The notes under the pieces are model-generated. The model was not told the origin of the DNA. It worked only from the letters and a program-made list of their open reading frames with translations, and made no database searches. From IMG/VR virus record IMGVR_UViG_3300031576_000029, positions 1 through 64,000 of that record: 64,000 nucleotides of DNA; one strand, written 5' to 3'. The DNA is from a virus. Its lineage: Duplodnaviria; Heunggongvirae; Uroviricota; Caudoviricetes. Shown here piece by piece: positions 20,596 through 64,000 of the stretch. Every line of letters begins with the position of its first letter. Within the stretch, counting starts at the first letter, position 1. The translations under genes were made by a program, and so were the position numbers.

Positions 20596-21683
20596 GCGAC
20601 TTTCGGGTAGAAATTACTGATATCAAAGCAGTAAGACATCATCCCAATGCTGATAGATTAGATATTGTAAATATATTTGGTTGGGAAGTTGTAACATCTA
20701 AAGATACTTATAAAGTTGGTGATAAAGTATGTTATTTTCCTGTTGATTGTATTATAAGTGAAGATTTGGAAAAAATATTGTTTCCTCCTGATTCTAAAAT
20801 TAAATTAACTAATAGACGTATTAAAAGTATAAAATTGCGCGGACAAATAAGTCAAGGAATGATTGCTAATCCTAAACTTATAGGAGTGGATCATTTTAAT
20901 ATCGATAAAAATGTAGCTGAGTATTTAAAATGTATTAAATATGAACCACCAGAAATATCTAAACCAAGAGGAATGCAGGTTAGATCCAAAAAACAAGTCA
21001 ATCCTAATTTTCGTAAATATACTGATATTCAAAATTATAAATATTATAATGAAGTATTTCAACAAGGGGAACTTGTTGTTATTACTGAAAAATGTCACGG
21101 CACCTCGTGGCGTGGAGGTTGGGTGAAAAACGATGCTAATACTTTGTGGAAGAAAATAAGAAAATTATTTGGTCGGCTTCCTGAATGGGAATTTGTTTGG
21201 GGAAGTCATAATGTTCAAATTCAAAATAAATTATTTCATAAGGGCTTTTATGATGTAGATGTATATTCGAAAATGGTTAAACAATATGATTTAAAAAATC
21301 TTATTCCAAAAGGTTATGTTCTTTATGGAGAAATAGTTGGTTATAATATTCAAAAGAATTTCCATTATGATTGTGTTCCAGGGGAACATAAACTCTTTTT
21401 ATTTGATGTAAAATTTAATGACAAATGGTTAGATTATGAAGATTTTAAAATTACAGTAGATGCTTTAAAATTATCTAGAGTTCCTGAATTATTTACTGGT
21501 CCATATGATCCGGCTATTGTTGATAAACTTAGAAGCGGAACTAGTATATTAGATGAAAATACCATTAAAGAAGGTATTGTAATTAAAACAATTAAAGAAA
21601 CAGAATGTTCACTTGGAAGAAAAATATTAAAATTTATAAATGATGAATATTATTTATTAAAAGACGGAACGGATTATCATTAG
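20592..21683 (+). CDS. Rnl2-family RNA ligase fused to an N-terminal Myf/EMAP-type tRNA-binding domain
   Basis: N-terminal HPNADRLDIVNI matches the tRNA-binding-domain signature. Ligase motif I EKCHGTS (KxHG as in Rnl2), motif IV LFLFDV, motif V KEGIVIK. Confidence 0.6.
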   Translation: MSDFRVEITDIKAVRHHPNADRLDIVNIFGWEVVTSKDTYKVGDKVCYFPVDCIISEDLEKILFPPDSKIKLTNRRIKSIKLRGQISQGMIANPKLIGVDHFNIDKNVAEYLKCIKYEPPEISKPRGMQVRSKKQVNPNFRKYTDIQNYKYYNEVFQQGELVVITEKCHGTSWRGGWVKNDANTLWKKIRKLFGRLPEWEFVWGSHNVQIQNKLFHKGFYDVDVYSKMVKQYDLKNLIPKGYVLYGEIVGYNIQKNFHYDCVPGEHKLFLFDVKFNDKWLDYEDFKITVDALKLSRVPELFTGPYDPAIVDKLRSGTSILDENTIKEGIVIKTIKETECSLGRKILKFINDEYYLLKDGTDYH

Positions 21684-25772: not shown

Positions 25773-26088
25773 AAAATATAATAGAGAAATTGATGAGAAG
25801 TATAGATTAGAAAATCTTGTTAGAGAACAAAAATCTATTATAAGACAATTAAATAAGAAACTTAGAAGAATTTCTAGAGGTTATAGAAGTTATTTAGATA
25901 AAGATATATTTGAAGAAGTAGAGTCAATAACTACTTCTAAAGAAATAGAAAAAGTTTGTTTTGAATGTGAAAAGGGAATTTTGGAATTAAAAATTCTCCT
26001 CAATAGAAGATGGCGTGAATGTAATATATGTTCCTATAGAACTAAAGTTAAAATCCAACAATCTGATGGATCATGGAAAAAAATGTAA
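25765..26088 (+). CDS. Hypothetical protein with CxxC pairs
   Basis: 107-aa ORF with CFECEKG...CNICSY. Confidence 0.4.
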   Translation: MSKKYNREIDEKYRLENLVREQKSIIRQLNKKLRRISRGYRSYLDKDIFEEVESITTSKEIEKVCFECEKGILELKILLNRRWRECNICSYRTKVKIQQSDGSWKKM

Positions 26089-26480
26089 AGAAATTTAAGT
26101 TACCTAAGTTAGAATCATGGCTTCGTACTAAATTACGTAGAATTTCAATTCAATGGCCTGCTAAAAATGAAGCTCTAAAACGTGCTCGTGCAGAACGAGG
26201 TAAATATCAATGTGCCGAATGTAATAAATTATTTCCTCATAAAAAAGTTCACGTGGATCATCTAAAATCTGTTATTAATATTAAAACCGGTTTTACTGAT
26301 TGGAATGAATTTATTTCTAGATTATTTGTAGATATCGATGGCCTGCAAATTTTATGTTTAAGATGTCATGACAACAAAACTTTTCTAGAAGATGGAATGA
26401 GAATGTATTATAAAAACAAGAAGAAAAAGAGTAAACATGAAAGGCTTTCGCCAATACCTACAGTCCCTCTTAAAATCTGA
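26073..26480 (+). CDS. HNH endonuclease
   Basis: CAECN...HVDH...N...CLRCHDNK. Confidence 0.65.
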   Translation: MEKNVKKFKLPKLESWLRTKLRRISIQWPAKNEALKRARAERGKYQCAECNKLFPHKKVHVDHLKSVINIKTGFTDWNEFISRLFVDIDGLQILCLRCHDNKTFLEDGMRMYYKNKKKKSKHERLSPIPTVPLKI

Positions 26481-51330: not shown

Positions 51331-51801
51331 TTAAACCTGTTGTAAAGCCGTTGCGGCAAATGTTATTTTGCCTGTATGTCCTGTTCCAGCTAATGTTGTT
51401 GTAGTAAATTTAACTTGACCATTGCTATCTATTGTAAAGGTTATTTTACCATCCCCAACTGCTTCCCTGTCAAATTCCCAAGATGTTCCATTAAAAATGG
51501 TTTTAATTAATCCTGCCTCAAAAGCTGAAGTTGAATTAGTAGTTCTTGCTACTGTATATCGTATAAAAGCTCCGCGTACTAAACTATTAGGAAATTGAAG
51601 ATTTGATATTGTTACATTAGTACCGGGATTAAAGCTATCTATTGTAAATGATTGGGGAGCTATATCATTAGGACCAGCGGCAGTTGTTAAAGCAGTTTCA
51701 ACAGCTTGAGCAAACTCAACTATTGCAGCAGCCCAATTTGGAGATTCTCCAGATGTTGGAAACTCCAAGGAAGTCCCCTGTATGGTAATGGTTACAGACA
51801 T
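51331..51801 (-). CDS. Hypothetical virion protein
   Basis: 156 aa. Confidence 0.4.
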   Translation of the reverse strand: MSVTITIQGTSLEFPTSGESPNWAAAIVEFAQAVETALTTAAGPNDIAPQSFTIDSFNPGTNVTISNLQFPNSLVRGAFIRYTVARTTNSTSAFEAGLIKTIFNGTSWEFDREAVGDGKITFTIDSNGQVKFTTTTLAGTGHTGKITFAATALQQV

Positions 51802-52502
51802 TCGATTTTACATCCCTTTTTCCAATTATCTTTATCCCATAAGGGTTGTAAATTGGTATAATGACAGAGTTTGTAAATTTCTTCATCTGTTTTTGCTGAA
51901 GATAAAGGAATTATATGGTCAATATGCCATTTTCCTATATTATCCCAAGACATACCATTATGAAATTTTTGTTCTAAGTATTGTTTTAAAAATTGGGGTG
52001 TACAATATGTATATTCATCAAATTTATATATTTTTTTATTGTGCAAAAAACAACGTATTCTATTACGTAATTTTTTCTTCAAATTAAATAATATATCTTC
52101 ATGATATTTTTTATTTTCGTAATATCGAATTTTAGATCTGTATTTTTTTCGATATTCCTTTTTTCTAAGTCGAATTATATCATGATGACGATAATAAAAA
52201 GATCTACTAATAAGTTTTCTCTTTGTCCTATTATTCTCAGTCCATTTTTTATTATTTAATTTAATTTTCTCTATATAGAAAGGATTATGCTTATTTTTCA
52301 AGTACCATAAGTGTTTTTGTAATTTAATCTTCGTTAGATTTTTAAAGGTATACTGTTTTGTGCTTTTTTTACAACACTCCCGACAATAACCGCTTAATCC
52401 ATCTGCCTTGGACTTATCTATATAGTAATAAGACGCATTTAAGGCGTATTTGCATTTAGAACACGTTTTTATATAAGTAAAGTCTTGAATAGAAACAGAC
52501 AT
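51792..52502 (-). CDS. Free-standing HNH homing endonuclease with N-terminal Cys cluster
   Basis: GKWHIDHIIPLS...N.QPL...N. Inserted between structural genes. Confidence 0.6.
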   Translation of the reverse strand: MSVSIQDFTYIKTCSKCKYALNASYYYIDKSKADGLSGYCRECCKKSTKQYTFKNLTKIKLQKHLWYLKNKHNPFYIEKIKLNNKKWTENNRTKRKLISRSFYYRHHDIIRLRKKEYRKKYRSKIRYYENKKYHEDILFNLKKKLRNRIRCFLHNKKIYKFDEYTYCTPQFLKQYLEQKFHNGMSWDNIGKWHIDHIIPLSSAKTDEEIYKLCHYTNLQPLWDKDNWKKGCKIECL

Positions 52503-52608: not shown

Positions 52609-53832
52609 TTATGCTGAATTTACGATATCTTTAATTAACGTATTTTTTCCAGGTGCCATGCAGAATAGAGCTTGATCGCTATAAAGTCTCAATTCATATG
52701 CAGCGGAATTCTCCACATCTCGGAAGAATTCTTCACCTTGGCCAGGACGCTTAAAGGTCATATCAGATGAACCGACACGATACCAGTCTTCTAGTGATAG
52801 AAGATATGCATACCCTTCTTTTACGTAAATACTTGGGATGATTTCAATAGGTCCATTTTGTGAATGGAAAAGAAGTGATTCAGACCCAGTTTCTGCTACA
52901 GACGATTTATAACTAGAATCATATTGTCGAAGAGCAGCTTGATCTGATAACATATTAGCCCATGCTCTAGGATTACAGAAAGCAAGAACTCTGCCATCTA
53001 AACCCTTTTCAACGGCTCTTGAAGAAGCTAGATTAAGTTTAGTAAAACTCAGTGCAGCTGAACTCGCAGAGAACTCATTGCCTTTGAATAGGTTATATGT
53101 AGCAGTATCAATATTAAATAGCGTACCAGTTGAAGTGAGGATTTTATGAACTCCAGGGAATTCATTTCCAAACGCACCAGAATGCCAAATAACATCAGTT
53201 GCTATTGTTCCAGGAACTGCCGTTTGTAATTTGACAACTCGTGTATCCATATTAACAGACTTAACTACCGAAGTACCACGAGAAGTAGTACCAGCAGTAT
53301 CACGAATTTCAACAGGCATTCCTTCGGCTCCTGCCCAAATTCCAGGTCCCCATTCCGCAGTAGTAATGGTAAGATCTGCACCAGAAACAGAAGCAACTAC
53401 GCCATAACCCATTTGACCATAGAACATCTCAATCTCAAGCTTTTTAGCCATTGATCGGAGCATATTAGCTACTAAAAATTTAGTAGCATCCATAAAGGCT
53501 TTTGAACCACCAAGAGCAGCTCGACTGGCTGATGTATAGCCTAGAAGGGATCTCATAACCACTGGATTACCTTTTACTTGTGCATCCTTAATGACACCAG
53601 CTACTGGCGGATTAAGATTAAATGCGTCTTCATCTGAAGAAGCAAAAGTAACACCATGTTCCATACCAAGAATAACAGGCTGATGATAAAGATTACCAGG
53701 CTGTCTTTCTTTAGACATAAATTTAATTCTATTTAATAGTTTAACTCCATCGGGAATCAATTCAGCAAGCTTTTCAGCATAAGCTTCCTTGAAAAACCCA
53801 TTAAGAGTTTGTATTGAATTTGCAGTACTCAT
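52609..53832 (-). CDS. Putative major capsid protein
   Basis: 407 aa, downstream of a scaffold-like acidic protein. Assigned by position and size only. Confidence 0.4.
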   Translation of the reverse strand: MSTANSIQTLNGFFKEAYAEKLAELIPDGVKLLNRIKFMSKERQPGNLYHQPVILGMEHGVTFASSDEDAFNLNPPVAGVIKDAQVKGNPVVMRSLLGYTSASRAALGGSKAFMDATKFLVANMLRSMAKKLEIEMFYGQMGYGVVASVSGADLTITTAEWGPGIWAGAEGMPVEIRDTAGTTSRGTSVVKSVNMDTRVVKLQTAVPGTIATDVIWHSGAFGNEFPGVHKILTSTGTLFNIDTATYNLFKGNEFSASSAALSFTKLNLASSRAVEKGLDGRVLAFCNPRAWANMLSDQAALRQYDSSYKSSVAETGSESLLFHSQNGPIEIIPSIYVKEGYAYLLSLEDWYRVGSSDMTFKRPGQGEEFFRDVENSAAYELRLYSDQALFCMAPGKNTLIKDIVNSA

Positions 53833-53844
53833 ATTTATCTCCTA

Positions 53845-54309
53845 TTAACTCTGCTCATCCACTACATAGTGAACTTCAAGAGCTGCTCGATAATCGCCAG
53901 CAGAAAGATCTACTGCACTATCAATATCAAGAACAATCTTGTCACTATTAGCAGAAAGCCCTGTAGTATTAGCTAATGTACAGCCAATAACTTCAGGTGA
54001 ATCTTGTCGCACTGCTTTTGCAGACACAATTCGTTTAACTTTTTCACCAACTTTGATTAAAGCAGAATACTTGCCAGCCGCATTACTTGGGGCGACAGTC
54101 GTTGGAGATGCTTCACCTGAATCAAGCGCACCAGTTGAAGATGAAATATCATTAACTCCTTCTGTTTTTAGAAAGAGAACTGAAGGATCATCTGGTCTAT
54201 GTAGGACGTTTGCAGGAGTTGCATTGCCATCAATAAAGAAATGACAATAAAGGGATTGTACTTTAAGTTGTACGCCCTTTGGTTGTTCATTTTTTGCTTC
54301 GTAAGGCAT
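53845..54309 (-). CDS. Hypothetical head protein
   Basis: 154 aa. Confidence 0.35.
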   Translation of the reverse strand: MPYEAKNEQPKGVQLKVQSLYCHFFIDGNATPANVLHRPDDPSVLFLKTEGVNDISSSTGALDSGEASPTTVAPSNAAGKYSALIKVGEKVKRIVSAKAVRQDSPEVIGCTLANTTGLSANSDKIVLDIDSAVDLSAGDYRAALEVHYVVDEQS

Positions 54310-54457
54310 TGTGAATATCCTTTTAAATAATGTTATGTAAAAGCACTATGCTTCTACTTTGTGTTTGCATTATTTATTTCTATTACGATATCCACGCCCT
54401 TTAGGAGGTAACGCAGAGTCTATTGGTAGAACGTTAAATGCTAAAACTTTTCTATAA

Positions 54458-54468
54458 ATAGTTGTTAA
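54458..54468 (-). promoter_or_regulatory. Late motif copy 4
   Basis: Lies in the 212-nt gap upstream of 53845..54309. Confidence 0.35.
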
Positions 54469-54521
54469 TTTTACAGTATTTCATTTTCAACTATTTGTAA
54501 ACTATTGAAATTTATAATAAA

Positions 54522-55523
54522 TTACACTCCGAAAAAATCTTTAAATGTCTGTTTTGATTTACCATCAACTTTTTGCTCTGTCTTTTTTCCAGTATCCACC
54601 AAAGCTTTATTTACTGGAGTTGGTGGAGTACCTTTTTCTTTAGCCTTTGCTACATTCTTTTTTCTCATTCTTGTAAGAATATCTTTCCCGATAATTTGTT
54701 CAATAACTTCATCTGGCATAAGACCAAACATTTCTTTTAAATCTTTATGCATTTCTTCTTTAACTAGAGGAATGATATCTTGCGGTTCAACATTTAATCC
54801 TTGTTGTAAGCCAAGAAGCATATAATCAGCAATCTTTTTTACAGTATAAGGAGTTTTAGGAAGATCTGATTTAGAAAGAGCATCACTAATCAGAACATCG
54901 TAACGTTCATATTCTTGATCTTGTAAACGAGCAAATTCTCTTTTCTCATATTCTGATTTCTCACGTTCTCGTTCTTCTTTTTCAGCCTTTAATTCTGCTT
55001 GTAATTTTTCTTTTTCTAATTGTTCCGGACTTTTTTGACTATCAACAATATCCTTTTCAATTACTTTTGCTGCTAGTTTTTTTAAGTCAATTCCTAGAGA
55101 AGGATCTGATAATATAGATTCAGGATCAGCTTTAAGTTGTTTTATAAAATCAGAAACTTCTTTTTCTAAATCTTTATATTGCTGCGCTCTTGTTTGACCC
55201 ATCTTCGAAAGTTGTAAATGACGAGTTAGGTAATCTACAACTTGTGGGTCATCTGGAATATCAAAAGGAAGTTCTTCTTCATATTCTTTTTGATCAATTT
55301 TTAATTTTAATTTATTGAGAAATTTAATTTCTTCAACATCTTCTTTAGTAAGATCTTCTGGATCTTTACTAGTAAGTTCTTCTAACTTTTCATCTACAGC
55401 TTCAGCTGAAGAAGTTTCTGCAGATGTATCTATAGAAGCATCTACTGCTTCAGTAGTTTCAACTGTTTCAGTTGGAGAGGTTGAAGTTGGTTGTGATTGA
55501 GATGAGACGGGATTCGTTGACAT
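54522..55523 (-). CDS. Acidic coiled-coil protein, scaffold-like
   Basis: 333 aa, rich in E/D/K. Confidence 0.4.
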   Translation of the reverse strand: MSTNPVSSQSQPTSTSPTETVETTEAVDASIDTSAETSSAEAVDEKLEELTSKDPEDLTKEDVEEIKFLNKLKLKIDQKEYEEELPFDIPDDPQVVDYLTRHLQLSKMGQTRAQQYKDLEKEVSDFIKQLKADPESILSDPSLGIDLKKLAAKVIEKDIVDSQKSPEQLEKEKLQAELKAEKEEREREKSEYEKREFARLQDQEYERYDVLISDALSKSDLPKTPYTVKKIADYMLLGLQQGLNVEPQDIIPLVKEEMHKDLKEMFGLMPDEVIEQIIGKDILTRMRKKNVAKAKEKGTPPTPVNKALVDTGKKTEQKVDGKSKQTFKDFFGV

Positions 55524-55596
55524 ATTTACTCCTTTAAATTAGTCCTTTCGGATATAATTAAAGCGATCCGTCACAATGATAGGATCGTTTGAATTA

Positions 55597-55773
55597 TTAT
55601 TTACTTTCTTTTTTTCCCTTAACTGATAATTGAGTCATCTTTTTTGTACCATATTTTTTGCGCCCAATCCAAGCAGCTAAAGCAGCAGGAGATCTAGCAC
55701 CACGTTTTGCAAGCTTTTCTTGTAATGCTTTGAAACGTTCACCAGATCCAAGTTTTGGTTTGTTGTCTGCCAT
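55597..55773 (-). CDS. Small basic protein of 58 aa (hand-translated): MADNKPKLGSGERFKALQEKLAKRGARSPAALAAWIGRKKYGTKKMTQLSVKGKKESK
   Basis: Clean ATG-to-TAA ORF, with the late motif 80 nt upstream. Confidence 0.35.
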   Translation of the reverse strand: MADNKPKLGSGERFKALQEKLAKRGARSPAALAAWIGRKKYGTKKMTQLSVKGKKESK

Positions 55774-55852
55774 ATATTAGTTCCTAATGGAATGTAATTT
55801 ATTTAAACCGTCCACAATGGATAGGTTTATTTTACTAGCTATTTCACCAATA

Positions 55853-55863
55853 ATAGTTGTTAA
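55853..55863 (-). promoter_or_regulatory. Late motif copy 5
   Basis: 80 nt upstream of the 58-aa ORF. Confidence 0.35.
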
Positions 55864-56016
55864 ATAAGAATTAAACTATTTTTCCTTTAGTACTTTATGT
55901 CTAAATAACTTTTTTATCCGTTTCCAATATTTAGAATCAGTAGGAGATATTAAATTTTTAGCATAAGTTTCTTTAAATAATGGTTTTAAAGAAGCATATA
56001 TATTAGCTACAGCCAA

Positions 56017-56310
56017 TTATATACCCCTTGGACGCTTTCTAAATCTTTCTAAAAGTTCTAATTCTTCTGGAGTAGGTTCATAACTTTTTGATATTCCTTC
56101 ACTTATTGGTTCTTCATAAACTCTAGGAATTGGAGCTACATATGTTTCACCTAAGCGACCACCAGGAACTGGAGTCACAAATGGAGCATATCCTTCAGGT
56201 GCAGGAATGTCTAAAGTTTCTTCTGGCCCAATTGTATATCCTTCCGGAACATCTGGAACTGGTTTTGCTGGCATTCCCACTAACTCTTTTAATTTACGAA
56301 ATTTTGGCAT
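56017..56310 (-). CDS. Pro-rich hypothetical protein
   Basis: 97 aa. Confidence 0.35.
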   Translation of the reverse strand: MPKFRKLKELVGMPAKPVPDVPEGYTIGPEETLDIPAPEGYAPFVTPVPGGRLGETYVAPIPRVYEEPISEGISKSYEPTPEELELLERFRKRPRGI

Positions 56311-56312
56311 AA

Positions 56313-56678
56313 TTATTGTTTCCTATATCTTTGAAAATATTGTGGAATAAACTCACCAATAGGTATCTCAGCTTCTTGAGCTTGTTTTGCTATTTCTGAA
56401 GCCAATCCTTCTGCTCCTGGCTGTTGTAAAGCTAATTCATATTTACCTATTTCTATTAAATCACGAATTAATTTTCGTTGATCCATTATCATTAATGGAT
56501 CTTTCGCATCAACTTGACTTCCGAAACGAATAGAAGGAATTGTTTCAGCAGGCAAAGGTCCTTGGCCTAAACCTGGATTTAAACGTTTTATTTTATTCTC
56601 AGTGCTTATTTTGGCTATTTTTCTTTTTGACACGATGTTAGATTCTTCTAAGGCTTTTTTTGCATCCCATTTCGACAT
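56313..56678 (-). CDS. Hypothetical protein
   Basis: 121 aa. Confidence 0.4.
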   Translation of the reverse strand: MSKWDAKKALEESNIVSKRKIAKISTENKIKRLNPGLGQGPLPAETIPSIRFGSQVDAKDPLMIMDQRKLIRDLIEIGKYELALQQPGAEGLASEIAKQAQEAEIPIGEFIPQYFQRYRKQ

Positions 56679-56688
56679 ATTTTTCTCC

Positions 56689-57333
56689 TTAATAAATACT
56701 TAAAAATTCTTTAATATCTTTTAATGGAACAAAAAATCCATAATTAGTTCGTGTATCAACAGCACGACTTAATCCTACTATATCACCAAAATCATTTACC
56801 GCAGGACTTCCAGAACTTCCTGGAAATACAAAAATATTTGATATATATTCATCTATCTCATCTTCTTTTATAAGAGAAAGAAATTCACCCACTGTAGTAT
56901 TTTGTGGACCAAGATAGGGATATCCAATTACTGTATAAACTTTATTTAAATTAACACTATTTGCAAGATTTAATCCTGATCTATCATTAAGAGCTTCTAC
57001 TAAACATAAATCAGTAACTTCGGAAAGTTCAATAATATGTCTTTTTATATATCTTTTTGATGCATATTCTATCAAAACTGAATTATCATCCTGTGCTACA
57101 TATTCACAAACATGAGAATTTGTTAAAATATATGTATTTCCGGAAGGAGAATTAATATAAACTCCAGTTCCGCCGCCGCTTTTTGCTGGATTAAAAATTC
57201 GTACGGTTTTGGAACCTACTTTATTATGAAGATAAATATATTGCCAATCAGGAACTTTGTAAGATAAAAATAGCATTATTGTTATTAAAGTTAAGATTCG
57301 TAGAATTTTTTTCAAAACAGTTTTAAACCACAT
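56689..57333 (-). CDS. Membrane-anchored trypsin-like (S1) serine protease
   Basis: N-terminal TM; TNSHVC (His), DLCLVEA (Asp), PGSSGSPAVN (Ser). Confidence 0.6.
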   Translation of the reverse strand: MWFKTVLKKILRILTLITIMLFLSYKVPDWQYIYLHNKVGSKTVRIFNPAKSGGGTGVYINSPSGNTYILTNSHVCEYVAQDDNSVLIEYASKRYIKRHIIELSEVTDLCLVEALNDRSGLNLANSVNLNKVYTVIGYPYLGPQNTTVGEFLSLIKEDEIDEYISNIFVFPGSSGSPAVNDFGDIVGLSRAVDTRTNYGFFVPLKDIKEFLSIY

Positions 57334-57334
57334 A

Positions 57335-57520
57335 CTAGTATTTTTTCTCTTGTTGTTGAGATTGCAATAAAGTAATTCTCTCTAAAGCAGCTTCTTTTGC
57401 TTTTCTTCTCATTTCTTCTTCTGCAGCTAAACGAGCTTGTTCCTGTTCCGTACCAAAAAATTGCATTTGTTGAATCTCTTCCTCGGATTTTTTAGAACCA
57501 TTTTGTCGGATTAAGGGCAT
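57335..57520 (-). CDS. Small hypothetical protein
   Basis: 61 aa. Confidence 0.3.
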   Translation of the reverse strand: MPLIRQNGSKKSEEEIQQMQFFGTEQEQARLAAEEEMRRKAKEAALERITLLQSQQQEKKY

Positions 57521-57634
57521 ATAACATCCTCATAATGGTTAAAAGTAAACATATATTCAAGATCATACTCATTCTAAATAGCCAAATTTGATTACGTAAT
57601 GGCTTATATCTTTCTTGATTTTTGAACGTTACTT

Positions 57635-57877
57635 TCATTCTTCTTTTGCTTTTCTTGGCTTTTTAGCTACCATAGATATCGGATTACCAATTGGTTTTAT
57701 TACAAAAGAATCCGGTTTTTTTTCTACTTCAGCTTTAATTTCTTCTACAATTCCATTAAACCAAGCACAAGCTTGAGAAAAAGCTAAAGCTTCCATCCCA
57801 TCTAATTCGTATTTACCACGTTTGATTATTTTAATTAAATTTTCTGCTCTAAGAAGATCACTTTTTGTGTATTTCAT
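57635..57877 (-). CDS. Hypothetical protein
   Basis: 80 aa. Confidence 0.35.
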   Translation of the reverse strand: MKYTKSDLLRAENLIKIIKRGKYELDGMEALAFSQACAWFNGIVEEIKAEVEKKPDSFVIKPIGNPISMVAKKPRKAKEE

Positions 57878-57879
57878 AG

Positions 57880-58736
57880 TTATTTTGTTCCTAAACTAGT
57901 TGTTATTATTGGGCCTTTGATGGCTGTTTCATATCCTAATTGAATTCCATTAGCTATTTTTTCAGAATCAAAATCTAATGTATCATGCATAATATATGAT
58001 GGAGCATATACAGCTAATTCTATGAATTTTTTATCTTTTTCTTTGTTACATTCCAAACAAGTTTGAATATCATTAATGAATATTTCATGAGTTAAAATAT
58101 CAATCGTGCGTAATGCATTAGATATCCAATTACCAACTTTTCTTTCAGATTGCTCATATTCTAAAGGATTACATAAAATCACTATCATTTTATCAGTTCC
58201 ATCTAAAATAGCCTGTTTTAAAGGAGTTTGTTCTCTTACACCACCATCTACCCATTCATCATCGATAGGAGCCATAATACCAGGAATAGTAGCAGAAGCC
58301 TCGACAGAACTAATGAAGTCAATTTCACTATCATGCCCATATTTAATTTTCCCCGTAATAAGACTAACTTTACAAACATATATATCACATGTAGGAGATC
58401 CTACTATATTTTTTTCTAATATTTTTCTCAAAGGTTTTGTATTATAAAGACCCTTAGATTTAAGAATAAGACTTAACCAATTAAATGAAATAATATTTGT
58501 TTTTCCTTTAATATTTCTCCATACTTTTTCTAAACCAGATATTCCTTGATAAGCATATCCAACAGCATTTAATGCTCCAACGGAAGTTCCATAAATAGCA
58601 TCAGGATGAAAGCCAAATTCAGACAGATATTTCATAACACCAAATTGAAAAGAACCTTTAGCACCTAACCGCCCCCGGAAAGAACCAGAGCGGTCTTATC
58701 CAGGGGCAACTCCTTTAGTCTTTTTTTATTTTCCAT
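57880..58736 (-). pseudogene. Patatin-like phospholipase split by a 1-nt frameshift at the C5/G5 run near 58672
   Basis: The downstream frame carries GTSVGALNA (GxSxG) and WVDGGV (the Asp dyad). The true N-terminus MENKKRLKELPLDKTALVLSGGG (oxyanion GGG) sits in another frame, starts at 58736, and stops after GGG. Confidence 0.6.
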
Positions 58737-59392
58737 ATAAAACCTCTGCACTTATTAGTATTTGTAAAACAAATACAATTTCTTATAGATGTATAGGTAA
58801 CACCAACGGATTTAGCTGCTTCTTTATAACTTGGATAATCTTTAATAAATTTTTCATCTAAAGTGTATTTAGATATAGCAACTCGATTAAACGGAATTTG
58901 ACCACATTTAAATTCTGTTTTAGGACTTAATCTTTGATTATTTTTAATTTCAGTTGCCGAACTTCTATGTTCACCTTTAACAAAAGAACCTTTATTTCTT
59001 TTTGAAACACCTTTTAATCCCTTATTCCAAGGGATAGTTCCTTTTGGAACTCCTTCTCCTCCAGGAGTTAGATTTAATAAAGTTATTTTATTATTATAAA
59101 ATTTTATTAAAGATTTCTCAACAAATTCCCAATTATTTTTTGAAGTTACTTCTAATATTTTAATATTAGGTTTTAATCCTTTATCTAAAAGACTTTTTAA
59201 CCATGCTCTTTTATGTGTTTTAGTATTATTTTTAACTTGACATAAATGTTGAGTAAGTCTTTTTAATGGGTTCATACTCTTTCCAATATAACGAATCTCA
59301 TTAGATATAGGATCAATCAATGCATAAATAAAAATTGGATGAGTTTCCATTTTTATAGTATCTTCACCTGATAATATTAAAGCTATTTTCAT
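58715..59392 (-). CDS. GIY-YIG homing endonuclease
   Basis: IYALIDPISNEIRYIGKS. Confidence 0.6.
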   Translation of the reverse strand: MKIALILSGEDTIKMETHPIFIYALIDPISNEIRYIGKSMNPLKRLTQHLCQVKNNTKTHKRAWLKSLLDKGLKPNIKILEVTSKNNWEFVEKSLIKFYNNKITLLNLTPGGEGVPKGTIPWNKGLKGVSKRNKGSFVKGEHRSSATEIKNNQRLSPKTEFKCGQIPFNRVAISKYTLDEKFIKDYPSYKEAAKSVGVTYTSIRNCICFTNTNKCRGFIWKIKKD

Positions 59393-59393
59393 A

Positions 59394-59822
59394 TTATCTG
59401 TTTATTAAAAATGTATAAAGATTTATACATACATCCGCATCAAGTATCGCTGAACTAGATGATGTATAATGTATTCGCAAATACAATTTTGAAGGAATAT
59501 CTACAATAAAATCATTTTCTATATTATTAAGTTGAGTTTTCATTATATAAAATTTTGAAATATATTCTGATACAATAGTATTAATAGGATAATAAATTCC
59601 ATCTTTATCGACAATTTCAATCTTAATATAATCACCAAAAGTACTAGTTTCACTAAATAAATTTCCTGTTCTTAATCCCACAGTTTTATCAGAATTCAGC
59701 ATAAAATCATGTATAGTAGTTATTTGCTTTGTTGCTATAAATTTATATCCTTGTATATTTAAAGTATAAGCATCTATAGATGTTTTAGATCTATACATAT
59801 TAACTATCCTTTGTATGCACAA
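59394..59822 (-). CDS. Hypothetical virion protein
   Basis: 142 aa. Confidence 0.35.
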   Translation of the reverse strand: MCIQRIVNMYRSKTSIDAYTLNIQGYKFIATKQITTIHDFMLNSDKTVGLRTGNLFSETSTFGDYIKIEIVDKDGIYYPINTIVSEYISKFYIMKTQLNNIENDFIVDIPSKLYLRIHYTSSSSAILDADVCINLYTFLINR

Positions 59823-60381
59823 TTAAACCGGCATTAAAGAGTTTATTACCAGTTCCTACTTCTCTTCTAACAAAAAGTTGTATCTTTGAAGTAAATCTAG
59901 TAGGATGATAAGTTGGAGAACTTGCAAAGAAAAAAGATGCGTTAGTGCCAATATTTAAGCCAGTAGTAATAACATTTTGTGTTCCAACTGCTAAACCATA
60001 GAAATTATCAACATCATCCGTTAATAATCCATTAGAACCAAAAATTTCTTCAGTTGAATCTAATACTAAACGTATATTCCATTTTGAATTAGCAGTAGCA
60101 ATTCCTAATGATATTCCAGTGAATAATCCAGAACCAATATATTCATATAATTTAATCCAATTATTATCAGCTATTATAGTAGTTCCTCTAGCAACTCCTC
60201 CTGTAGAAGCATTCATGTCATTATATCTTAATTTAGCAGAAAATGCAGCTACTCCTGAAGCAGATGTAGAAGTTATTTGAGCATCAACTTTTAATCTATC
60301 TACAACATTTCCAATTAAAGTATCATCCGTATTGCCTCTAATTTTGATTAAAGAAACAAACTTTTGTATAATGTATGACAT
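59800..60381 (-). CDS. Hypothetical virion protein
   Basis: 193 aa. Confidence 0.4.
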   Translation of the reverse strand: MSYIIQKFVSLIKIRGNTDDTLIGNVVDRLKVDAQITSTSASGVAAFSAKLRYNDMNASTGGVARGTTIIADNNWIKLYEYIGSGLFTGISLGIATANSKWNIRLVLDSTEEIFGSNGLLTDDVDNFYGLAVGTQNVITTGLNIGTNASFFFASSPTYHPTRFTSKIQLFVRREVGTGNKLFNAGLIVHTKDS

Positions 60382-60692
60382 TAACCAGCTTCTTGAACTA
60401 CAACAGTAGAACTACCACTATCGGTTATTAAAAAAACTCCAATATTTTCACCAAAAGAAAAAGTAGCAACTTCTTCCACCTCTATAACTACTCCAGTTAA
60501 AGATGTTACTCCTGATGGTCCTGCGAATATTTTTTTAGTACCTTTATTATAAACCATCAATGATTCTCTTCCTATAAGTCTATTAGCTCCTACTTTTGCC
60601 TCAATAGCTGTAGTAGTAACAGTTATAGAACTAGTAATGTAACTATCATTAAGTACATCACTATATTCAGGGCTTTCTGATAAAGTACTCAT
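60381..60692 (-). CDS. Hypothetical virion protein
   Basis: 103 aa. Confidence 0.4.
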   Translation of the reverse strand: MSTLSESPEYSDVLNDSYITSSITVTTTAIEAKVGANRLIGRESLMVYNKGTKKIFAGPSGVTSLTGVVIEVEEVATFSFGENIGVFLITDSGSSTVVVQEAG

Positions 60693-60718
60693 AAAAAAGG
60701 GAGAAATTGCCTTCTCCC
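60693..60718 (-). terminator. Hairpin GGGAGAA-ggcaat-TTCTCCC followed by T6, immediately upstream of the next ATG
   Basis: Perfect 7-bp stem plus a U-tract on the minus strand. Confidence 0.4.
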
Positions 60719-60730
60719 TGATGTGATTAA

Positions 60731-61657
60731 TTATCCAAGTTCTAATACACGAACATCTTGACCAGCCGAAGATGAAATTGCAAAGATGTTAACATCAGGA
60801 CCGGCTTCAATTGTTAGAGTGGCACCAGCTGCAATTCGAAAACCATTAGCTGTAGTTAATTCATCTGTGGTAACTACATGATTACCGATGAAGATAGCTT
60901 TACTTCCTAAGTTTTGAATATGCATAAGAATTCTGCTATCAATTGAAACAGCTGCTAAATTAGCAGCGGTTGTACCAATTGTCACTGCTGATCTTTTAAT
61001 ACCAACGTTTGCGCTATTATTAACTCTCGTACGTCTATATTTATCTGAAATTAGATTTGCTCGATCTCCTGATGTTGAAATTGCAGGTATAGCAGCACCA
61101 AATTGTGTTTTAGAACCAACTTTTACTGGAAATTCAGTATCTGCAGCATCATCATCAACTGTACCAACAGGAGAAGTCCATAATGCACCTCTATCGCTTA
61201 CTTTGAAAGAGATATAATCTCCATCAGCAGCGTCAGCAGTTAAAGTATCATCTCTAACAGCTAATACATATGAACCAATATCTCCTGATACATGAACACT
61301 ATCTTCTGCTTTTTCAAATGAACTAGTCAGATCTAAATCCGCTTGTACTTTCAATCGACCAACACTATCAACTTGCAATGGAGCATAATCTCCATCCGCA
61401 CTTACTAGACTTGTATTAGCGTCATTTCTAACTCCCAATACAAATTGTCCCCTATCGCCAGAGAGATGAGCAGAATCTTCTACGAAAACTCCACTATCTC
61501 CATCAGCAGTAGGATGAACATCCAATGCCTCATTACCTAATAAAGTGGTATGTGTTATTAATGTTCCAGATGAAGAACGCACATACGCACCTACGTTATC
61601 ACTTTCAGTTAAATTGGCCGTATCAAGAATCAATTTATCTTTAGTTAATGCACCCAT
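60731..61657 (-). CDS. Hypothetical virion protein
   Basis: 308 aa. Confidence 0.45.
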   Translation of the reverse strand: MGALTKDKLILDTANLTESDNVGAYVRSSSGTLITHTTLLGNEALDVHPTADGDSGVFVEDSAHLSGDRGQFVLGVRNDANTSLVSADGDYAPLQVDSVGRLKVQADLDLTSSFEKAEDSVHVSGDIGSYVLAVRDDTLTADAADGDYISFKVSDRGALWTSPVGTVDDDAADTEFPVKVGSKTQFGAAIPAISTSGDRANLISDKYRRTRVNNSANVGIKRSAVTIGTTAANLAAVSIDSRILMHIQNLGSKAIFIGNHVVTTDELTTANGFRIAAGATLTIEAGPDVNIFAISSSAGQDVRVLELG

Positions 61658-61702
61658 AGGTTATTGTTTCCTTTCATTGTATAATATGTAATGATTCATT
61701 CA

Positions 61703-62212
61703 TTACACCTTTTTCCAGACAAGAATTTCGGCAGTCGTAGCTGCTTGTGTTGATTGAAAAAATATATTTAAAGTTCCACTTGGTAAAATTTGTGTTGTCG
61801 CATAACTAGCACCTCTATTAATTTCTACATAGTTCGTACTAGATTCTCCTGATGTAAATGCTAATTTTAAAAGTCCTTTAGTATCTCTTGCTCTTATTAA
61901 AAATTGTTTCGTTCCAGTTGGAAGAGCTTGAGAATATTCAGTATTTGCCAATGCCATTACCACATTAATAATTTGTGGTGTATTTGGAAGTAACGGATTA
62001 ACATCTAATGCAACATCACTTCCATCAACTGTTGCGGTTGTTAAATTTGTACCGTCCCCAAGTCTTACAGAATCTTCTGTATGGGTGATATCAACTTCCA
62101 TATCACCACCCACAACAGTTGTTGTAGATGTAGTCCTTATTCTACCAGTAGATTCTTCAAACGCGTGCTGCAGTACTTGGCTACCATCTAATAAAGTTGC
62201 TGGAGGAGGCAT
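61703..62212 (-). CDS. Hypothetical virion protein
   Basis: 169 aa. Confidence 0.4.
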   Translation of the reverse strand: MPPPATLLDGSQVLQHAFEESTGRIRTTSTTTVVGGDMEVDITHTEDSVRLGDGTNLTTATVDGSDVALDVNPLLPNTPQIINVVMALANTEYSQALPTGTKQFLIRARDTKGLLKLAFTSGESSTNYVEINRGASYATTQILPSGTLNIFFQSTQAATTAEILVWKKV

Positions 62213-62224
62213 ACACTACCATAC

Positions 62225-62235
62225 ATAGTTGTTAA
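62225..62235 (-). promoter_or_regulatory. Late motif copy 6
   Basis: Lies between the intein-containing gene and 61703..62212. Extended match TTAACAACTATGTA. Confidence 0.35.
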
Positions 62236-64000
62236 GTTGGACCTAATTGTTGAGCTAATACGGGCAAATTCTCGAAAGGTTCCGGTGGAGTAGGAACTTG
62301 TGGAACCGCAACATTTTGAACAGCTTCTCCACCAGTCATTTCTTCTCCAGGAGGTATTAAACCAGCTTCAGCTTCCATTAATCCCTCCATAGGACTGCCT
62401 TCTAAAGCGCCTTGAGAAGGTTGTCCTTGTGGAGGCTGTTGAATGGGTTGTTGACCAATTATTTGCAATAAAGAAGGATCTGTATTCTTAAGTAGGTCTA
62501 TGTGTTCTTGAATATGTGCTAAAGTATTTTCTACCAAAGTTGTATCTTTTCTTAGATCAGGATCAGCAAGTACAGTTTTGTGTTCATTAATATGTAAAGT
62601 GTGATTATCTAATGCAATTGCTTGAACTTGTTCACCTTCTAATAGTCTTTCATTTTCTGACTTAATTAGAAGCAATTCACTCATTTCGCCTTCAAATGTC
62701 ATATCAAGTCTACCTGTATTAATAACCTGAAAATATTGTTGAGGAGATTTTAATAATTTCATTTGTAATAATTGTTCAGCCATTTGAACCCTACCTGCAA
62801 CTGTATTATGTGTTACGGTAAAATCGCCTAAAAGAAAATGAGGTTCTTCTTGCAAGGTGAAACCGTAATATGTGCCAAAACCTTTACATTCAACATTAAT
62901 TCCATAATTCAATGGATTTCTTGCCTTAATTTTTTCATGACATTGTTTTCTTGGTATTTTTACGGGAATGTTTGATGTATTACCACCAATAGATATTTTA
63001 AAACAATCAGAATCTAAATCACCAACCAACTTACTTGAGTTAGATTTAAATTTTTTAACCGTCACACGAAATCCTAAAGACTTAGTTAAATAAACAACAT
63101 CTTTTACTAATCTTTCATTTTTTTGTGTAAATATAAATGTTTCGTCAATTCTATGTCCATCAGTATCAAGTAATCCTGCTAATAAATTTAATCTATCTTC
63201 ACGACTAGAAGTTAAATAGAAAAACGGAATGTGTTTATTATTAATTAACTCCATAGACCGTAATGCGTTTATAAATGGATTACGATCGGGAGCACCATAA
63301 GCCTCACCAGATGTAATATGATAATTTTTAGACTTATTAGGCTGACGATTATCTTCAATTCTAACTTTCATTCCAATATCATTAGCAAAATTAATCCAAA
63401 TATCTGACAATTCTTTATCCATGGTAGTTAAACATGTATTTTTACTAGTTCCATCACCGAGCCATGCGCCTAAAATATAGGGAGGAATTTCTAGAGATTT
63501 CTTCTCAAATTCTACCCCTGTTGTAAATCCCTGTAATAGTCTTCGATGTCTCATGGATAAATTGAGATAATCTTTAACAGTTATATCTATAATATCACCT
63601 TGTTTTATATCATATCGAAAATCATCTGAACAATATCGAAGTGTTAAAATATGACTTTCATTACATCCATATTTAATATTTCTGTGTGGATCTTTTGATG
63701 TAATTTCATACATCATTTCTTGTCCACTATTCACATTTTTAACAGTTCTTGGTCCCGAATCTGGTCCCATAACTAAATCATTAATTTTAATCTCTTGGAC
63801 CATTTTAATGGTTCCATCATACATTAAAACAGGTGTATCTTTAGCCAAACAACGTGATAATGGATTCCCGACATCTACAACTACACGATTTATTGCATTA
63901 ATATCCTCACCAACAAATTCTTTTAATAATGGTCTATTATTTCTTCCCACCAATGCTATAACTTTTGGAGTAGTAGCAAAATCCTTAAGTATTTGAATTA
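62232..64000 (-). CDS. Packaging or portal-like protein interrupted by an intein; N-terminus beyond the window edge
   Basis: The reading frame stays open to position 64000. Extein sequence lies on both sides of a Hint/LAGLIDADG element. Confidence 0.5.
   Translation of the reverse strand, partial: IQILKDFATTPKVIALVGRNNRPLLKEFVGEDINAINRVVVDVGNPLSRCLAKDTPVLMYDGTIKMVQEIKINDLVMGPDSGPRTVKNVNSGQEMMYEITSKDPHRNIKYGCNESHILTLRYCSDDFRYDIKQGDIIDITVKDYLNLSMRHRRLLQGFTTGVEFEKKSLEIPPYILGAWLGDGTSKNTCLTTMDKELSDIWINFANDIGMKVRIEDNRQPNKSKNYHITSGEAYGAPDRNPFINALRSMELINNKHIPFFYLTSSREDRLNLLAGLLDTDGHRIDETFIFTQKNERLVKDVVYLTKSLGFRVTVKKFKSNSSKLVGDLDSDCFKISIGGNTSNIPVKIPRKQCHEKIKARNPLNYGINVECKGFGTYYGFTLQEEPHFLLGDFTVTHNTVAGRVQMAEQLLQMKLLKSPQQYFQVINTGRLDMTFEGEMSELLLIKSENERLLEGEQVQAIALDNHTLHINEHKTVLADPDLRKDTTLVENTLAHIQEHIDLLKNTDPSLLQIIGQQPIQQPPQGQPSQGALEGSPMEGLMEAEAGLIPPGEEMTGGEAVQNVAVPQVPTPPEPFENLPVLAQQLGPT
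62805..63851 (-). mobile_element. Intein of 349 aa with a LAGLIDADG homing-endonuclease core
   Basis: N-terminal CLAKDTPV; LAGLIDADG boxes ILGAWLGDGTS and LLAGLLDTDG; C-terminal FTVTHN followed by Thr. Confidence 0.7.

What the first reader, a model, noticed from the sequence alone, without database searches (positions are those of the whole stretch)
62232..64000. LAGLIDADG intein in a packaging or portal-like gene at the head of the late operon
The ORF contains a complete Hint domain: a Cys-1 block CLAKDTPVLMYDG, two LAGLIDADG boxes, and a terminal HN followed by Thr. It is flanked by extein sequence on both sides.

The N-extein reads open to the window edge (...DFATTPKVIALVGRNNRPLL...). The host protein is therefore larger than the track suggests, and likely a terminase large subunit or portal.

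There are also two HNH endonucleases and one GIY-YIG endonuclease elsewhere in the window. The genome is therefore heavily colonised by homing elements.
Basis: partly seen in the sequence, partly recalled or inferred. Interest (0 to 1): 0.5.

Follow-up and report, generated by a model that had tools for sequence, protein, structure and literature searches.

The report
Homing intein inside a phage portal gene
The gene at the right end of the window is a phage portal gene interrupted in frame by a complete, apparently active self-splicing intein with a homing endonuclease. It is a real but ordinary kind of selfish element, sitting at a portal site that I did not find described in the papers I read.

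Summary
On the minus strand, 62232..>64000 is one open frame that runs off the window. Bases 62805..63851 encode a 349-aa class-1 intein. It has Cys1, block B N64/H67, two LAGLIDADG motifs, block D Lys206 and a terminal His-Asn followed by Thr+1. It matches Pfam Hom_end_hint, Hom_end and LAGLIDADG_3, and PI-SceI at E=3e-21. The AlphaFold model has pLDDT 94.7 and aligns to PI-SceI at TM 0.83.

The host is the portal protein, not the large terminase. The spliced exteins align without a gap across the junction (…VVDVGNPLSR|TVAGRVQMAE…) to over 100 intein-less homologues. The closest is a 681-aa gene in an 80-kb viral contig. That gene scores above threshold for Pfam P22_portal and matches the PHROG portal family at 1e-28. 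It lies directly after a TerL gene and has the same downstream genes as the window.

Sixty-five distinct empty alleles share the site. At least ten other sequences carry a homologous intein (51-78% identical, depending on how each fragment is aligned) at exactly this site. Intein and extein relatedness disagree, and dN/dS is about 0.13-0.25, so the element still looks mobile.

Portal inteins are already known in other phages. This is a new member of a known kind.

The parts
63852..64000 (-). C-terminal 49 aa of the portal N-extein (…IQILKDFATTPKVIALVGRNNRPLLKEFVGEDINAINRVVVDVGNPLSR). The frame is open to the window edge. About 440 further N-terminal residues are expected outside the window.
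   Evidence: Translation. It is 92% identical to residues 442-490 of the intein-less 681-aa portal in L002 and aligns without gaps to intein-less homologues.
62805..63851 (-). 349-aa class-1 intein, from Cys1 to Asn349. It consists of a Hint splicing domain, a DNA-recognition region and a LAGLIDADG homing endonuclease domain.
   Evidence: Pfam Hom_end_hint, Hom_end and LAGLIDADG_3. PI-SceI at 3e-21. AlphaFold2 pLDDT 94.7, with Foldseek PI-SceI E=1e-30 and TM 0.83-0.85. Boundaries.
63813..63851 (-). Intein block A (CLAKDTPVLMYDG), with the Cys1 nucleophile at 63849-63851.
   Evidence: It aligns to PI-SceI residues 1-13, CFAKGTNVLMADG.
63639..63668 (-). Intein block B (GCNESHILTL), containing Asn64 and His67.
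   Evidence: N64 and H67 are nearly invariant among 48 related inteins.
63444..63479 (-). LAGLIDADG motif 1 (YILGAWLGDGTS). Asp133 is the presumed catalytic acid.
   Evidence: It aligns to PI-SceI YLLGLWIGDGLS. G132, D133 and G134 are nearly invariant.
63213..63239 (-). Block D (NKHIPFFYL), containing Lys206.
   Evidence: It aligns to PI-SceI VKNIPSFL. K206 is nearly invariant.
63150..63185 (-). LAGLIDADG motif 2 (LLAGLLDTDGHR). Asp231 is the presumed catalytic acid.
   Evidence: It aligns to PI-SceI FLAGLIDSDGYV. A225, G226, D229 and G232 are invariant and D231 is nearly invariant.
62805..62870 (-). Intein blocks F and G (YYGFTLQEEPHFLLGD FTVTHN), with the penultimate His348 and terminal Asn349.
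   Evidence: The sequence is conserved in all portal-borne homologues.
62232..62804 (-). Portal C-extein: 190 aa starting with the Thr+1 nucleophile (TVAGRVQMAEQ…), plus the TAA stop at 62232-62234.
   Evidence: Its first 150 aa are 81% identical to the L002 portal. More than 100 metagenomic homologues carry PF16510/PF23899 annotations.
58715..59392 (-). Free-standing GIY-YIG + NUMOD1 homing endonuclease gene in the structural block.
   Evidence: Pfam GIY-YIG 2.7e-7 and NUMOD1 8.6e-6. It is absent from the syntenic 67-bp gap of L002.

Best explanation
The window ends inside the portal gene of an uncultured tailed phage with a genome of roughly 80-90 kb. The portal belongs to the P22-like family, PF16510. 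A 1047-bp selfish element has invaded this gene in frame. The element is a class-1 intein of the PI-SceI (VMA1) type that carries a LAGLIDADG homing endonuclease.

Inferred mechanism. The gene is translated as a precursor of about 1030 aa. The Hint domain then excises itself in four steps: an N-S acyl shift at Cys1, trans-esterification to Thr+1, cyclisation of Asn349, and an O-N shift. This joins …GNPLSR to TVAGRVQ… and yields a normal portal of about 680 aa, which can assemble into the ring. The free intein then acts as a site-specific endonuclease. It cuts intein-less portal alleles at the conserved GNPL[SA][RK]|TxAGRVQMAE coding sequence during co-infection, and recombinational repair copies the intein into them (homing).

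The insertion point is the most conserved peptide of the C-terminal third of the portal. By interpolation on the Pfam model it lies near the wing/crown boundary, about residue 520 of P22 gp1.

Shown here: the element's anatomy, its fold, the host's identity, the existence of empty and filled alleles, and purifying selection. Inferred: actual splicing, actual cleavage, and the structural position.
For: - Anatomy: all splicing and endonuclease blocks and key residues are present.
- Fold: AlphaFold2 pLDDT 94.7 and pTM 0.92. The top Foldseek hits are eleven PI-SceI chains, with E down to 1e-30 and TM 0.76-0.85.
- Extein continuity: the spliced extein hits 122 proteins at up to 63% identity and 100% coverage. 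The junction aligns gap-free.
- Host identity: the L002 orthologue (681 aa) scores 45.1 bits on Pfam P22_portal against a cut-off of 26.1, and matches PHROG_156 'portal protein' at 1e-28. TerL (Terminase_6N) lies directly upstream in L002, and the downstream genes are collinear with the window.
- Full-length filled allele: L082 encodes a 1050-aa precursor, also right after TerL. It matches both P22_portal (44.1 bits) and Hom_end_hint.
- Allele survey: 65 distinct empty alleles share the motif. Filled alleles at the identical site are L082/L083/L085, L084, P0121-P0124, P0138, P0154, P0175 and P0176.
- Mobility: the intein is 72-77% identical to those of L082 and L084, whose C-exteins are only 52-58% identical to the window's. 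The closest extein relative, L002 (81-92%), is empty.
- Selection: all four complete inteins are exactly 349 aa. dN/dS is about 0.13-0.25 in both the splicing and the endonuclease parts.
- Position: P22 gp1 residues 13-625 match model positions 2-594, and L002 residues 83-481 match positions 48-485. P22 domain limits come from PMC12005531.
Against: - No experiment supports splicing or cleavage. Both are inferred from conserved residues.
- About 440 aa of the N-extein are outside the window. The window itself therefore does not show a full portal or the TerL neighbour. The 239-aa spliced fragment alone has no Pfam or PHROG hit.
- The portal assignment is by sequence family only. Neither the L002 portal sequence nor the 27-sequence portal profile matched any solved portal in PDB sequence searches. 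hhalign to P22 gp1 failed.
- The portal-fragment model was poor (pLDDT 57). Its Foldseek hits to the PaP3 and lambda portals were not significant. The wing/crown placement is therefore approximate.
- dS is near saturation (1.0-1.6), so the dN/dS values are rough.
Confidence: 0.9

Rival explanations
1. The intein still splices, but its endonuclease is inactive. On this view it is now a vertically inherited passenger on the way to becoming a mini-intein, not an actively homing element.
For: Filled alleles are a small minority of the portal family. None of the 77 viral loci (60 distinct full-length genes) checked from the portal search carried the intein. The intein's G+C content (30.2%) equals that of the window (31.9%), which suggests long residence.
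Against: Both LAGLIDADG acidic residues and the block D lysine are intact and nearly invariant in the family. The endonuclease segment has dN/dS of 0.14-0.24. All four complete copies keep exactly 349 aa. Intein and extein relatedness disagree, as expected for recent lateral transfer.
Confidence: 0.12
2. The host protein is the large terminase subunit.
For: The PHROG hits of the precursor are labelled 'terminase large subunit'. Terminase inteins are common in phages (PMC3670811; PMC7156551).
Against: Those hits cover only residues 35-318, which is almost entirely intein. The spliced extein has no terminase hit. Full-length orthologues match P22_portal and PHROG portal. A separate Terminase_6N gene lies upstream of them.
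Confidence: 0.01
3. The portal gene is disrupted and non-functional, for example in a defective phage or through an assembly artefact, and the Hint/endonuclease segment never splices out.
For: Only a fragment of the gene is visible. The window's own contig was not found in any collection, so the rest could not be inspected.
Against: The frame is intact over 588 codons. All splicing residues are present. Independent contigs carry the same architecture with a complete 1050-aa ORF. There is strong purifying selection. Exteins flanking the filled sites stay conserved.
Confidence: 0.03

Closest known systems
PI-SceI, the Saccharomyces cerevisiae VMA1 intein (PDB 1VDE, 1DFA, 1LWS, 1EF0)
   Same: Both have the same three-part architecture: Hint splicing domain, DNA-recognition region and LAGLIDADG endonuclease. 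They share Cys1, the block B C-N-x-x-H, LxGxWxGDG and LAGLxDxDG, K-x-IP in block D, and a terminal HN. Sequence E=3e-21. Fold TM 0.83-0.85 on a pLDDT 94.7 model.
   Different: Identity is only 20-23% in the structural alignments. This intein is 349 aa against 454 aa, with a shorter DNA-recognition region. Its +1 residue is Thr, not Cys. Its host is a phage portal, not the V-ATPase A subunit. Its target site is unrelated.
Portal-protein inteins of mycobacteriophages and actinobacteriophages, and of prophage Gp6/MuF-like proteins (Kelley et al. 2016, PMC5050341; bioRxiv 10.1101/2025.01.02.630785; Novikova et al. 2015, PMC4760082)
   Same: These are also inteins interrupting a phage portal or head-morphogenesis gene. 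Six portal inteins were reported in cluster C1 mycobacteriophages. Portal inteins form five separate groups in actinobacteriophages. Fourteen were counted in COG2369.
   Different: They come from different phage lineages and hosts. Their portals are annotated under a different family (InterPro IPR009279 or COG2369), whereas this one is PF16510 P22-like. I could not obtain their sequences or insertion sites for comparison. None of the 120 listed homologues of this intein carried a source name pointing to a cultured phage.
Walker-A (P-loop) inteins of viral and phage NTPases, the nearest non-portal relatives found here
   Same: They are the next-closest intein sequences: 28-44% identity over the full length for most of the list, and 35-44% for the higher-scoring hits. 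They have the same Pfam domains, a similar length (about 330-355 aa), and +1 Ser/Thr after a basic -1 residue. The P-loop is a documented intein hot spot (PMC4760082).
   Different: They sit in GxxGxGK|[ST] of thymidine kinases, helicases, AAA and thymidylate-kinase-like proteins. The portal is not an NTPase. The portal clade is clearly separate: at least 57% identity within it against at most 44% outside it.
Phage P22 gp1 portal (Pfam PF16510; domain map in PMC12005531)
   Same: Full-length orthologues of the host protein pass the PF16510 gathering threshold. They occupy the TerL-to-portal position, as in P22.
   Different: The relationship is very distant. There is no PDB hit by sequence or by profile, and hhalign to gp1 found nothing. 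There is no evidence for a P22-type C-terminal barrel; the tail here is a Pro/Gln-rich low-complexity segment. The SU10_portal model scores below its cut-off (25.2 against 30).

Membership tests
Intein (class 1, Hint superfamily) | An in-frame insertion whose removal restores a contiguous host protein. | tested here: met
   The spliced extein aligns gap-free across …GNPLSR|TVAGRVQ… to intein-less homologues. Sixty-five distinct empty alleles were found.
Intein (class 1, Hint superfamily) | Splicing blocks A, B, F and G, with a Cys/Ser at position 1, a block B His, a terminal (His-)Asn and a Cys/Ser/Thr at +1. | tested here: met
   Cys1, Asn64/His67, His348-Asn349 and Thr+1 are all present. Pfam Hom_end_hint scores 74 bits against a cut-off of 32.1.
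Intein (class 1, Hint superfamily) | The Hint fold. | tested here: met
   The AlphaFold2 model has pLDDT 94.7. Foldseek matches PI-SceI at E=1e-30 and TM 0.83, and also the Prp8 mini-inteins.
Intein (class 1, Hint superfamily) | Protein splicing actually occurs. | not testable with these tools
   This needs expression and detection of the ligated exteins.
LAGLIDADG homing endonuclease (PI-SceI type) | Two LAGLIDADG motifs, each with its catalytic acidic residue, forming a pseudo-dimeric core. | tested here: met
   YILGAWLGDGTS (Asp133) and LLAGLLDTDGHR (Asp231) align to the PI-SceI motifs. Both are conserved in 48 relatives. Pfam Hom_end scores 42.5 bits against 21.1, and LAGLIDADG_3 scores 28.4 against 22.5. 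The I-DmoI fold also matches.
LAGLIDADG homing endonuclease (PI-SceI type) | A sporadic distribution with empty target alleles, and a history that disagrees with the host gene's, as the footprint of homing. | tested here: met
   Both empty and filled alleles occur at the same site. The intein is 72-77% identical between alleles whose exteins are 52-58% identical, and the closest extein relative is empty.
LAGLIDADG homing endonuclease (PI-SceI type) | Site-specific cleavage of the intein-less allele. | not testable with these tools
   This needs an in vitro cleavage assay on the empty-site DNA.
Phage portal protein, P22-like (Pfam PF16510) | A sequence match to the family model above the curated threshold. 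| tested here: met
   The match was obtained for orthologues, not for the window fragment. L002 scores 45.1 bits and L082 scores 44.1 bits, against a cut-off of 26.1. PHROG_156 portal matches at 1e-28. The window fragment alone has no hit.
Phage portal protein, P22-like (Pfam PF16510) | A position in the head module next to the large terminase. | tested here: met
   TerL (Terminase_6N) lies directly upstream in L002 and in L082. The window's downstream genes are collinear with L002. The window's own upstream region is not available.
Phage portal protein, P22-like (Pfam PF16510) | The portal fold (wing, stem, clip, crown) and the dodecameric ring. | tested here: inconclusive
   The fragment model has pLDDT 57. 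The top Foldseek hits are the PaP3 and lambda portals, but at E of 0.2 or worse.
Phage SU10-like portal (Pfam PF23899) | A sequence match above the curated threshold. | tested here: not met
   Scores are 25.2 and 24.0 bits against a cut-off of 30.
Terminase large subunit | ATPase and nuclease domains in the exteins. | tested here: not met
   The exteins have no terminase hit. The PHROG terminase labels map to the intein only. A separate TerL gene exists in the relatives.

The most novel reading that the evidence does not exclude
The portal-borne intein clade may have arisen by an ectopic jump of a Walker-A (GK|T/S) P-loop intein into a look-alike [SA][RK]|T site of a non-enzymatic structural protein. 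It may since have spread by homing among a large family of uncultured ~80-90-kb phages. Because the insertion splits the portal near the wing/crown junction, the unspliced precursor probably cannot join the 12-mer. Splicing could then act as a timing or quality gate on procapsid initiation, as has been speculated for terminase inteins.
Probability: 0.15. Interest if true: 0.5.

Novelty: new member of a known kind. Interest (0 to 1): 0.3.

Why it matters
For annotation, it matters directly. Gene callers and family searches label this ORF 'terminase', 'replicative DNA helicase' or 'hypothetical' because of the intein. The true product is the portal.

It adds a well-defined intein allele with a single, highly conserved insertion site in P22-like portals of an abundant uncultured phage group. 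Matched empty and filled alleles are available for studying homing. It also shows, together with a GIY-YIG gene absent from the nearest relative, that this phage has picked up several mobile endonuclease elements.

The intein is compact (349 aa), its model is of high confidence, and it uses Thr+1. It could be of minor interest as a protein-engineering part. It does not change what is known about inteins.

Tried and rejected
- Pfam and PHROG scans of the spliced 239-aa extein gave no hit. The host was identified only through full-length orthologues.
- The PHROG 'terminase large subunit' hits of the precursor were rejected as intein-to-intein matches.
- Megablast of 56000-64000 against GenBank phages found nothing. 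tblastn found only a 28%-identical Silvanigrella phage record without annotation.
- I tried to extend past base 64000. An exact 41-mer search of viral contigs found nothing. Intein-based scans of viral and metagenome contigs, and a portal-based scan of genome contigs, did not contain the window's own contig.
- PDB sequence and profile searches with full-length portals found no portal. hhalign of the portal profile to P22 gp1 found nothing.
- AlphaFold2 of a 417-aa portal fragment gave pLDDT 57, and its Foldseek hits to portals were non-significant. The insertion site was therefore placed only by interpolating two Pfam alignments.
- I first guessed that the site was the tunnel loop. I rejected this. 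The interpolation puts the tunnel loop about 90 residues upstream (SGVNSVARGNPEASLKSG) and the intein near the wing/crown boundary.
- A second clear Pfam HNH gene was looked for among 39 further ORFs and not found. Only an EndoVII-like PHROG match turned up.
- Rfam and tRNA scans of the window were empty.
Full report
**1. What is in the sequence**

The feature lies on the minus strand. Translating window:62232-63998:- gives 588 sense codons followed by TAA at 62232-62234. The frame is still open at base 64000.

The product has three parts:
- Residues 1-49: …VVVDVGNPLSR, the end of the N-extein.
- Residues 50-398: CLAKDTPVLMYDG … FTVTHN, 349 aa, encoded by window 62805-63851.
- Residues 399-588: TVAGRVQMAEQ… to the stop, the C-extein.

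**2. The insert is a complete intein of the PI-SceI type**

Pfam finds Hom_end_hint (2.3e-20, 74 bits against a cut-off of 32.1), Hom_end (8e-11) and LAGLIDADG_3 (2e-6).

The best solved relative by sequence is PI-SceI, the yeast VMA1 intein, at E=3.1e-21. The alignment matches these elements:
- Cys1 and block A.
- Both LAGLIDADG motifs: YILGAWLGDGTS to YLLGLWIGDGLS, and LLAGLLDTDGHR to FLAGLIDSDGYV.
- The block D K-x-IP.
- The terminal …HN.

In an alignment of 48 related inteins, N64, H67, G132-D133-G134, K206 and D231 are nearly invariant, and A225, G226, D229 and G232 are invariant. From general knowledge of PI-SceI, marked here as knowledge and not as a test, these correspond to Asn76/His79 of block B and to the endonuclease residues Asp218, Lys301 and Asp326.

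An AlphaFold2 model built on that alignment is confident (mean pLDDT 94.7, pTM 0.92). Foldseek returns eleven PI-SceI chains first (E down to 1.2e-30, TM 0.76-0.85). Next come the Thermococcus VMA intein, PI-PfuI, the Prp8 mini-inteins and I-DmoI.

The intein is shorter than PI-SceI (349 against 454 aa) and uses Thr rather than Cys at +1. Its G+C content (30.2%) matches the window (31.9%), so it is not a recent arrival from a compositionally different genome.

**3. The host is the portal protein**

The spliced 239-aa extein has no Pfam or PHROG hit of its own. The PHROG 'terminase large subunit' hits of the precursor cover residues 35-318 only. That is almost entirely intein, so they reflect intein-bearing terminases in those families.

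A search of the large protein collection with the spliced extein found 122 proteins. The best are 60-63% identical over 100% of the query. Many carry P22_portal (PF16510) and/or SU10_portal (PF23899) annotations. In the multiple alignment the junction …VVVDVGNPLSR|TVAGRVQMAEQ… aligns without any gap to intein-less sequences.

The closest relative with context is IMG/VR contig UViG_3300031576_000026 (80 kb, locus L002). It matches at 76% over the whole spliced extein. The 49-aa N-extein is 92% identical, and the first 150 aa of the C-extein are 81% identical.
- It encodes an uninterrupted 681-aa protein.
- That protein scores 45.1 bits on P22_portal against a cut-off of 26.1.
- It matches PHROG_156 'portal protein' at 1e-28.
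- It is directly preceded by a 484-aa Terminase_6N protein.
- It is followed by genes collinear with window 52609-62212.

The intein sits after Arg490 of that protein. The window gene is therefore expected to encode a precursor of about 1030 aa. In this phage group, TerL, not the portal, is the gene immediately upstream.

**4. Empty and filled alleles**

I inspected the portal gene in the viral loci from the portal search.
- Of the 77 viral loci in which the junction motif was found, none has an insertion. Most of these genes are about 680-720 aa, and 60 are distinct full-length genes.
- Sixty-five distinct empty alleles were collected from the viral loci and from four MAG contigs of the genome-contig scan. 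They share the peptide VVDVGNPL[SA][RK]|[TS]xAGRVQMAE.
- This is the most conserved stretch of the C-terminal third of the protein.

Searching with the intein alone found homologous inteins at exactly this site:
- P0121-P0124, P0138, P0154, P0175 and P0176. Depending on how each fragment is aligned, they are 51-78% identical to the window's intein.
- L084, at 77%.
- L082/L083/L085, at 72%.

L082 lies on an 89.9-kb contig. It encodes a complete 1050-aa precursor right after a 495-aa TerL. That precursor matches both P22_portal (44.1 bits) and Hom_end_hint.

**5. Signs of mobility and of selection**

- The window's intein is 72-77% identical to those of L082 and L084, but the corresponding C-exteins are only 52-58% identical.
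- The closest extein relative, L002, has no intein.
- All four complete copies are exactly 349 aa.
- Nei-Gojobori dN/dS is about 0.13-0.25 in both the Hint/DRR part and the endonuclease part. This is rough, because dS is 1.0-1.6 and close to saturation.

Together with the intact catalytic residues, this fits an element that still splices and still, or until recently, homes.

**6. Where in the portal**

Sequence and profile searches against PDB found no portal. hhalign to P22 gp1 failed. The AlphaFold2 model of a 417-aa portal fragment was poor (pLDDT 57). Its best Foldseek matches, the PaP3 and lambda portals, were not significant.

The only placement available is therefore indirect:
- P22 gp1 residues 13-625 align to PF16510 positions 2-594.
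- L002 residues 83-481 align to positions 48-485.
- Residue 490 therefore corresponds to roughly gp1 residue 520.

In P22 the wing comprises residues 6-319 and 417-524, the crown 525-600, and the flexible tunnel loop 422-442 (PMC12005531). The intein thus sits near the wing/crown boundary, at the N-terminal cap of the first C-terminal helix. This agrees with the secondary structure of the low-confidence model, which has a helix starting right after Thr+1. The tunnel loop is more likely the upstream SGVNSVARGNPEASLKSG segment. This placement is an inference.

**7. Relatives of the intein outside portals**

Beyond the portal clade, the next-best hits are 28-44% identical. Where the junctions could be read, they almost all sit in Walker-A P-loops, GxxGxGK|[ST]. 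The hosts are thymidine kinases, ResIII/DEAD helicases, AAA, AAA_24 and thymidylate-kinase-like proteins. The P-loop is a known intein hot spot (PMC4760082).

The portal site, [SA][RK]|T, has the same basic-residue|Thr junction. A jump from a P-loop site into the portal is therefore conceivable, but it was not tested.

**8.

- 58715-59392(-) is a GIY-YIG + NUMOD1 endonuclease. L002 lacks it: the two flanking homologues there are 67 bp apart.
- 26073-26480(+) is an HNH endonuclease. Pfam gives 24.1 bits against a cut-off of 21.4, and several PHROG HNH families match down to 6e-14.
- 51792-52502(-) matches PHROG_1035 'endonuclease VII' at 1.9e-19 but has no Pfam family.
- A Pfam scan of 39 further ORFs found no additional HNH.

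The statement 'colonised by homing elements' is fair. 'Two HNH' is only loosely supported.

**9. Comparison with what is known, and novelty**

Inteins in phage portal or head-morphogenesis genes have been reported before:
- Six in cluster C1 mycobacteriophage portals (PMC5050341).
- Five separate groups in actinobacteriophage portals (bioRxiv 10.1101/2025.01.02.630785).
- Fourteen in prophage Gp6/MuF-like proteins (PMC4760082).

Terminase inteins are common.

What is specific here is the host family and the site. The hosts are distant P22-like portals of uncultured phages with contigs up to about 90 kb. The closest contigs come from environmental metagenomes. A few relatives are binned with Flavobacteriaceae or Bacteroidia MAGs, which is only a weak host hint. 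I found no description of this allele in the papers I read, but I could not compare it with the published portal inteins directly.

Verdict: a real, well-preserved and probably active intein, and a new member of a known kind.

Noticed in passing
window 3147-4736 (+): A phage-encoded Ro60-like protein (TROVE 2.7e-44 plus Ro60 vWA domain 1.5e-45). No Y-RNA or any other Rfam family was detected nearby or anywhere in the window, and there are no tRNAs. RNA-repair-type genes lie further along: RlaP at 19810-20595 and an RNA ligase at 20592-21683.
   Followed up: partly
window 58715-59392 (-); L002 15250-15317: A free-standing GIY-YIG + NUMOD1 endonuclease gene is inserted between two structural-block genes. 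The homologues of those two genes in L002 are only 67 bp apart. It is a second mobile element that distinguishes this phage from its closest relative.
   Followed up: partly
window 51792-52502 (-): A 236-aa ORF lies next to the major head protein gene (52609-53832, PHROG_14242). It matches PHROG 'endonuclease VII' at 1.9e-19 but has no Pfam family. It may be another free-standing homing endonuclease.
   Followed up: no
proteins P0125-P0240: The intein's non-portal relatives are almost all inserted in Walker-A P-loops (GxxGxGK|S/T) of thymidine kinases, helicases, AAA and thymidylate-kinase-like proteins. Some are on very large contigs, up to 1.6 Mb. The portal site has a similar basic-residue|Thr junction.
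   Followed up: partly
window 56689-57333 (-) and 57880-58635 (-): A trypsin-like peptidase (Trypsin_2, 1.7e-12) and a patatin-like phospholipase (4.3e-15) are encoded inside the structural gene block. Both have homologues at the same place in L002. The peptidase may be the prohead protease. The role of the patatin is unknown.
   Followed up: no
window 1-29500 (+): The early/replication arm encodes a subtilase, a PcfJ-like protein, a class II RNR-like protein, a PD-(D/E)XK nuclease, ThyX, a Band 7 protein, a DnaB-type helicase, family B DNA polymerase, UDG, dCMP deaminase, an AAA ATPase, an RNase H-like exonuclease, and MazG/dGTP diphosphohydrolase-type proteins. None of these carries an intein.
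   Followed up: no
loci L086-L092: Seven GTDB genome contigs encode relatives of this portal. Four are binned as Flavobacteriaceae, Flavobacterium, Bacteroidia or Bacteroidetes MAGs. The others are binned as Dolichospermum and Saccharibacteria. This is a weak hint that the phage group infects Bacteroidota, and it could equally be a binning artefact.
   Followed up: no
window 62235-62430 (-), C-terminal ~65 aa of the portal: The portal ends in a Pro/Gln/Gly-rich low-complexity tail with a conserved terminal PPxPFxxxP motif. The tail varies greatly in length between relatives. It is disordered in the model. It replaces what would be the barrel in P22 gp1.
   Followed up: no
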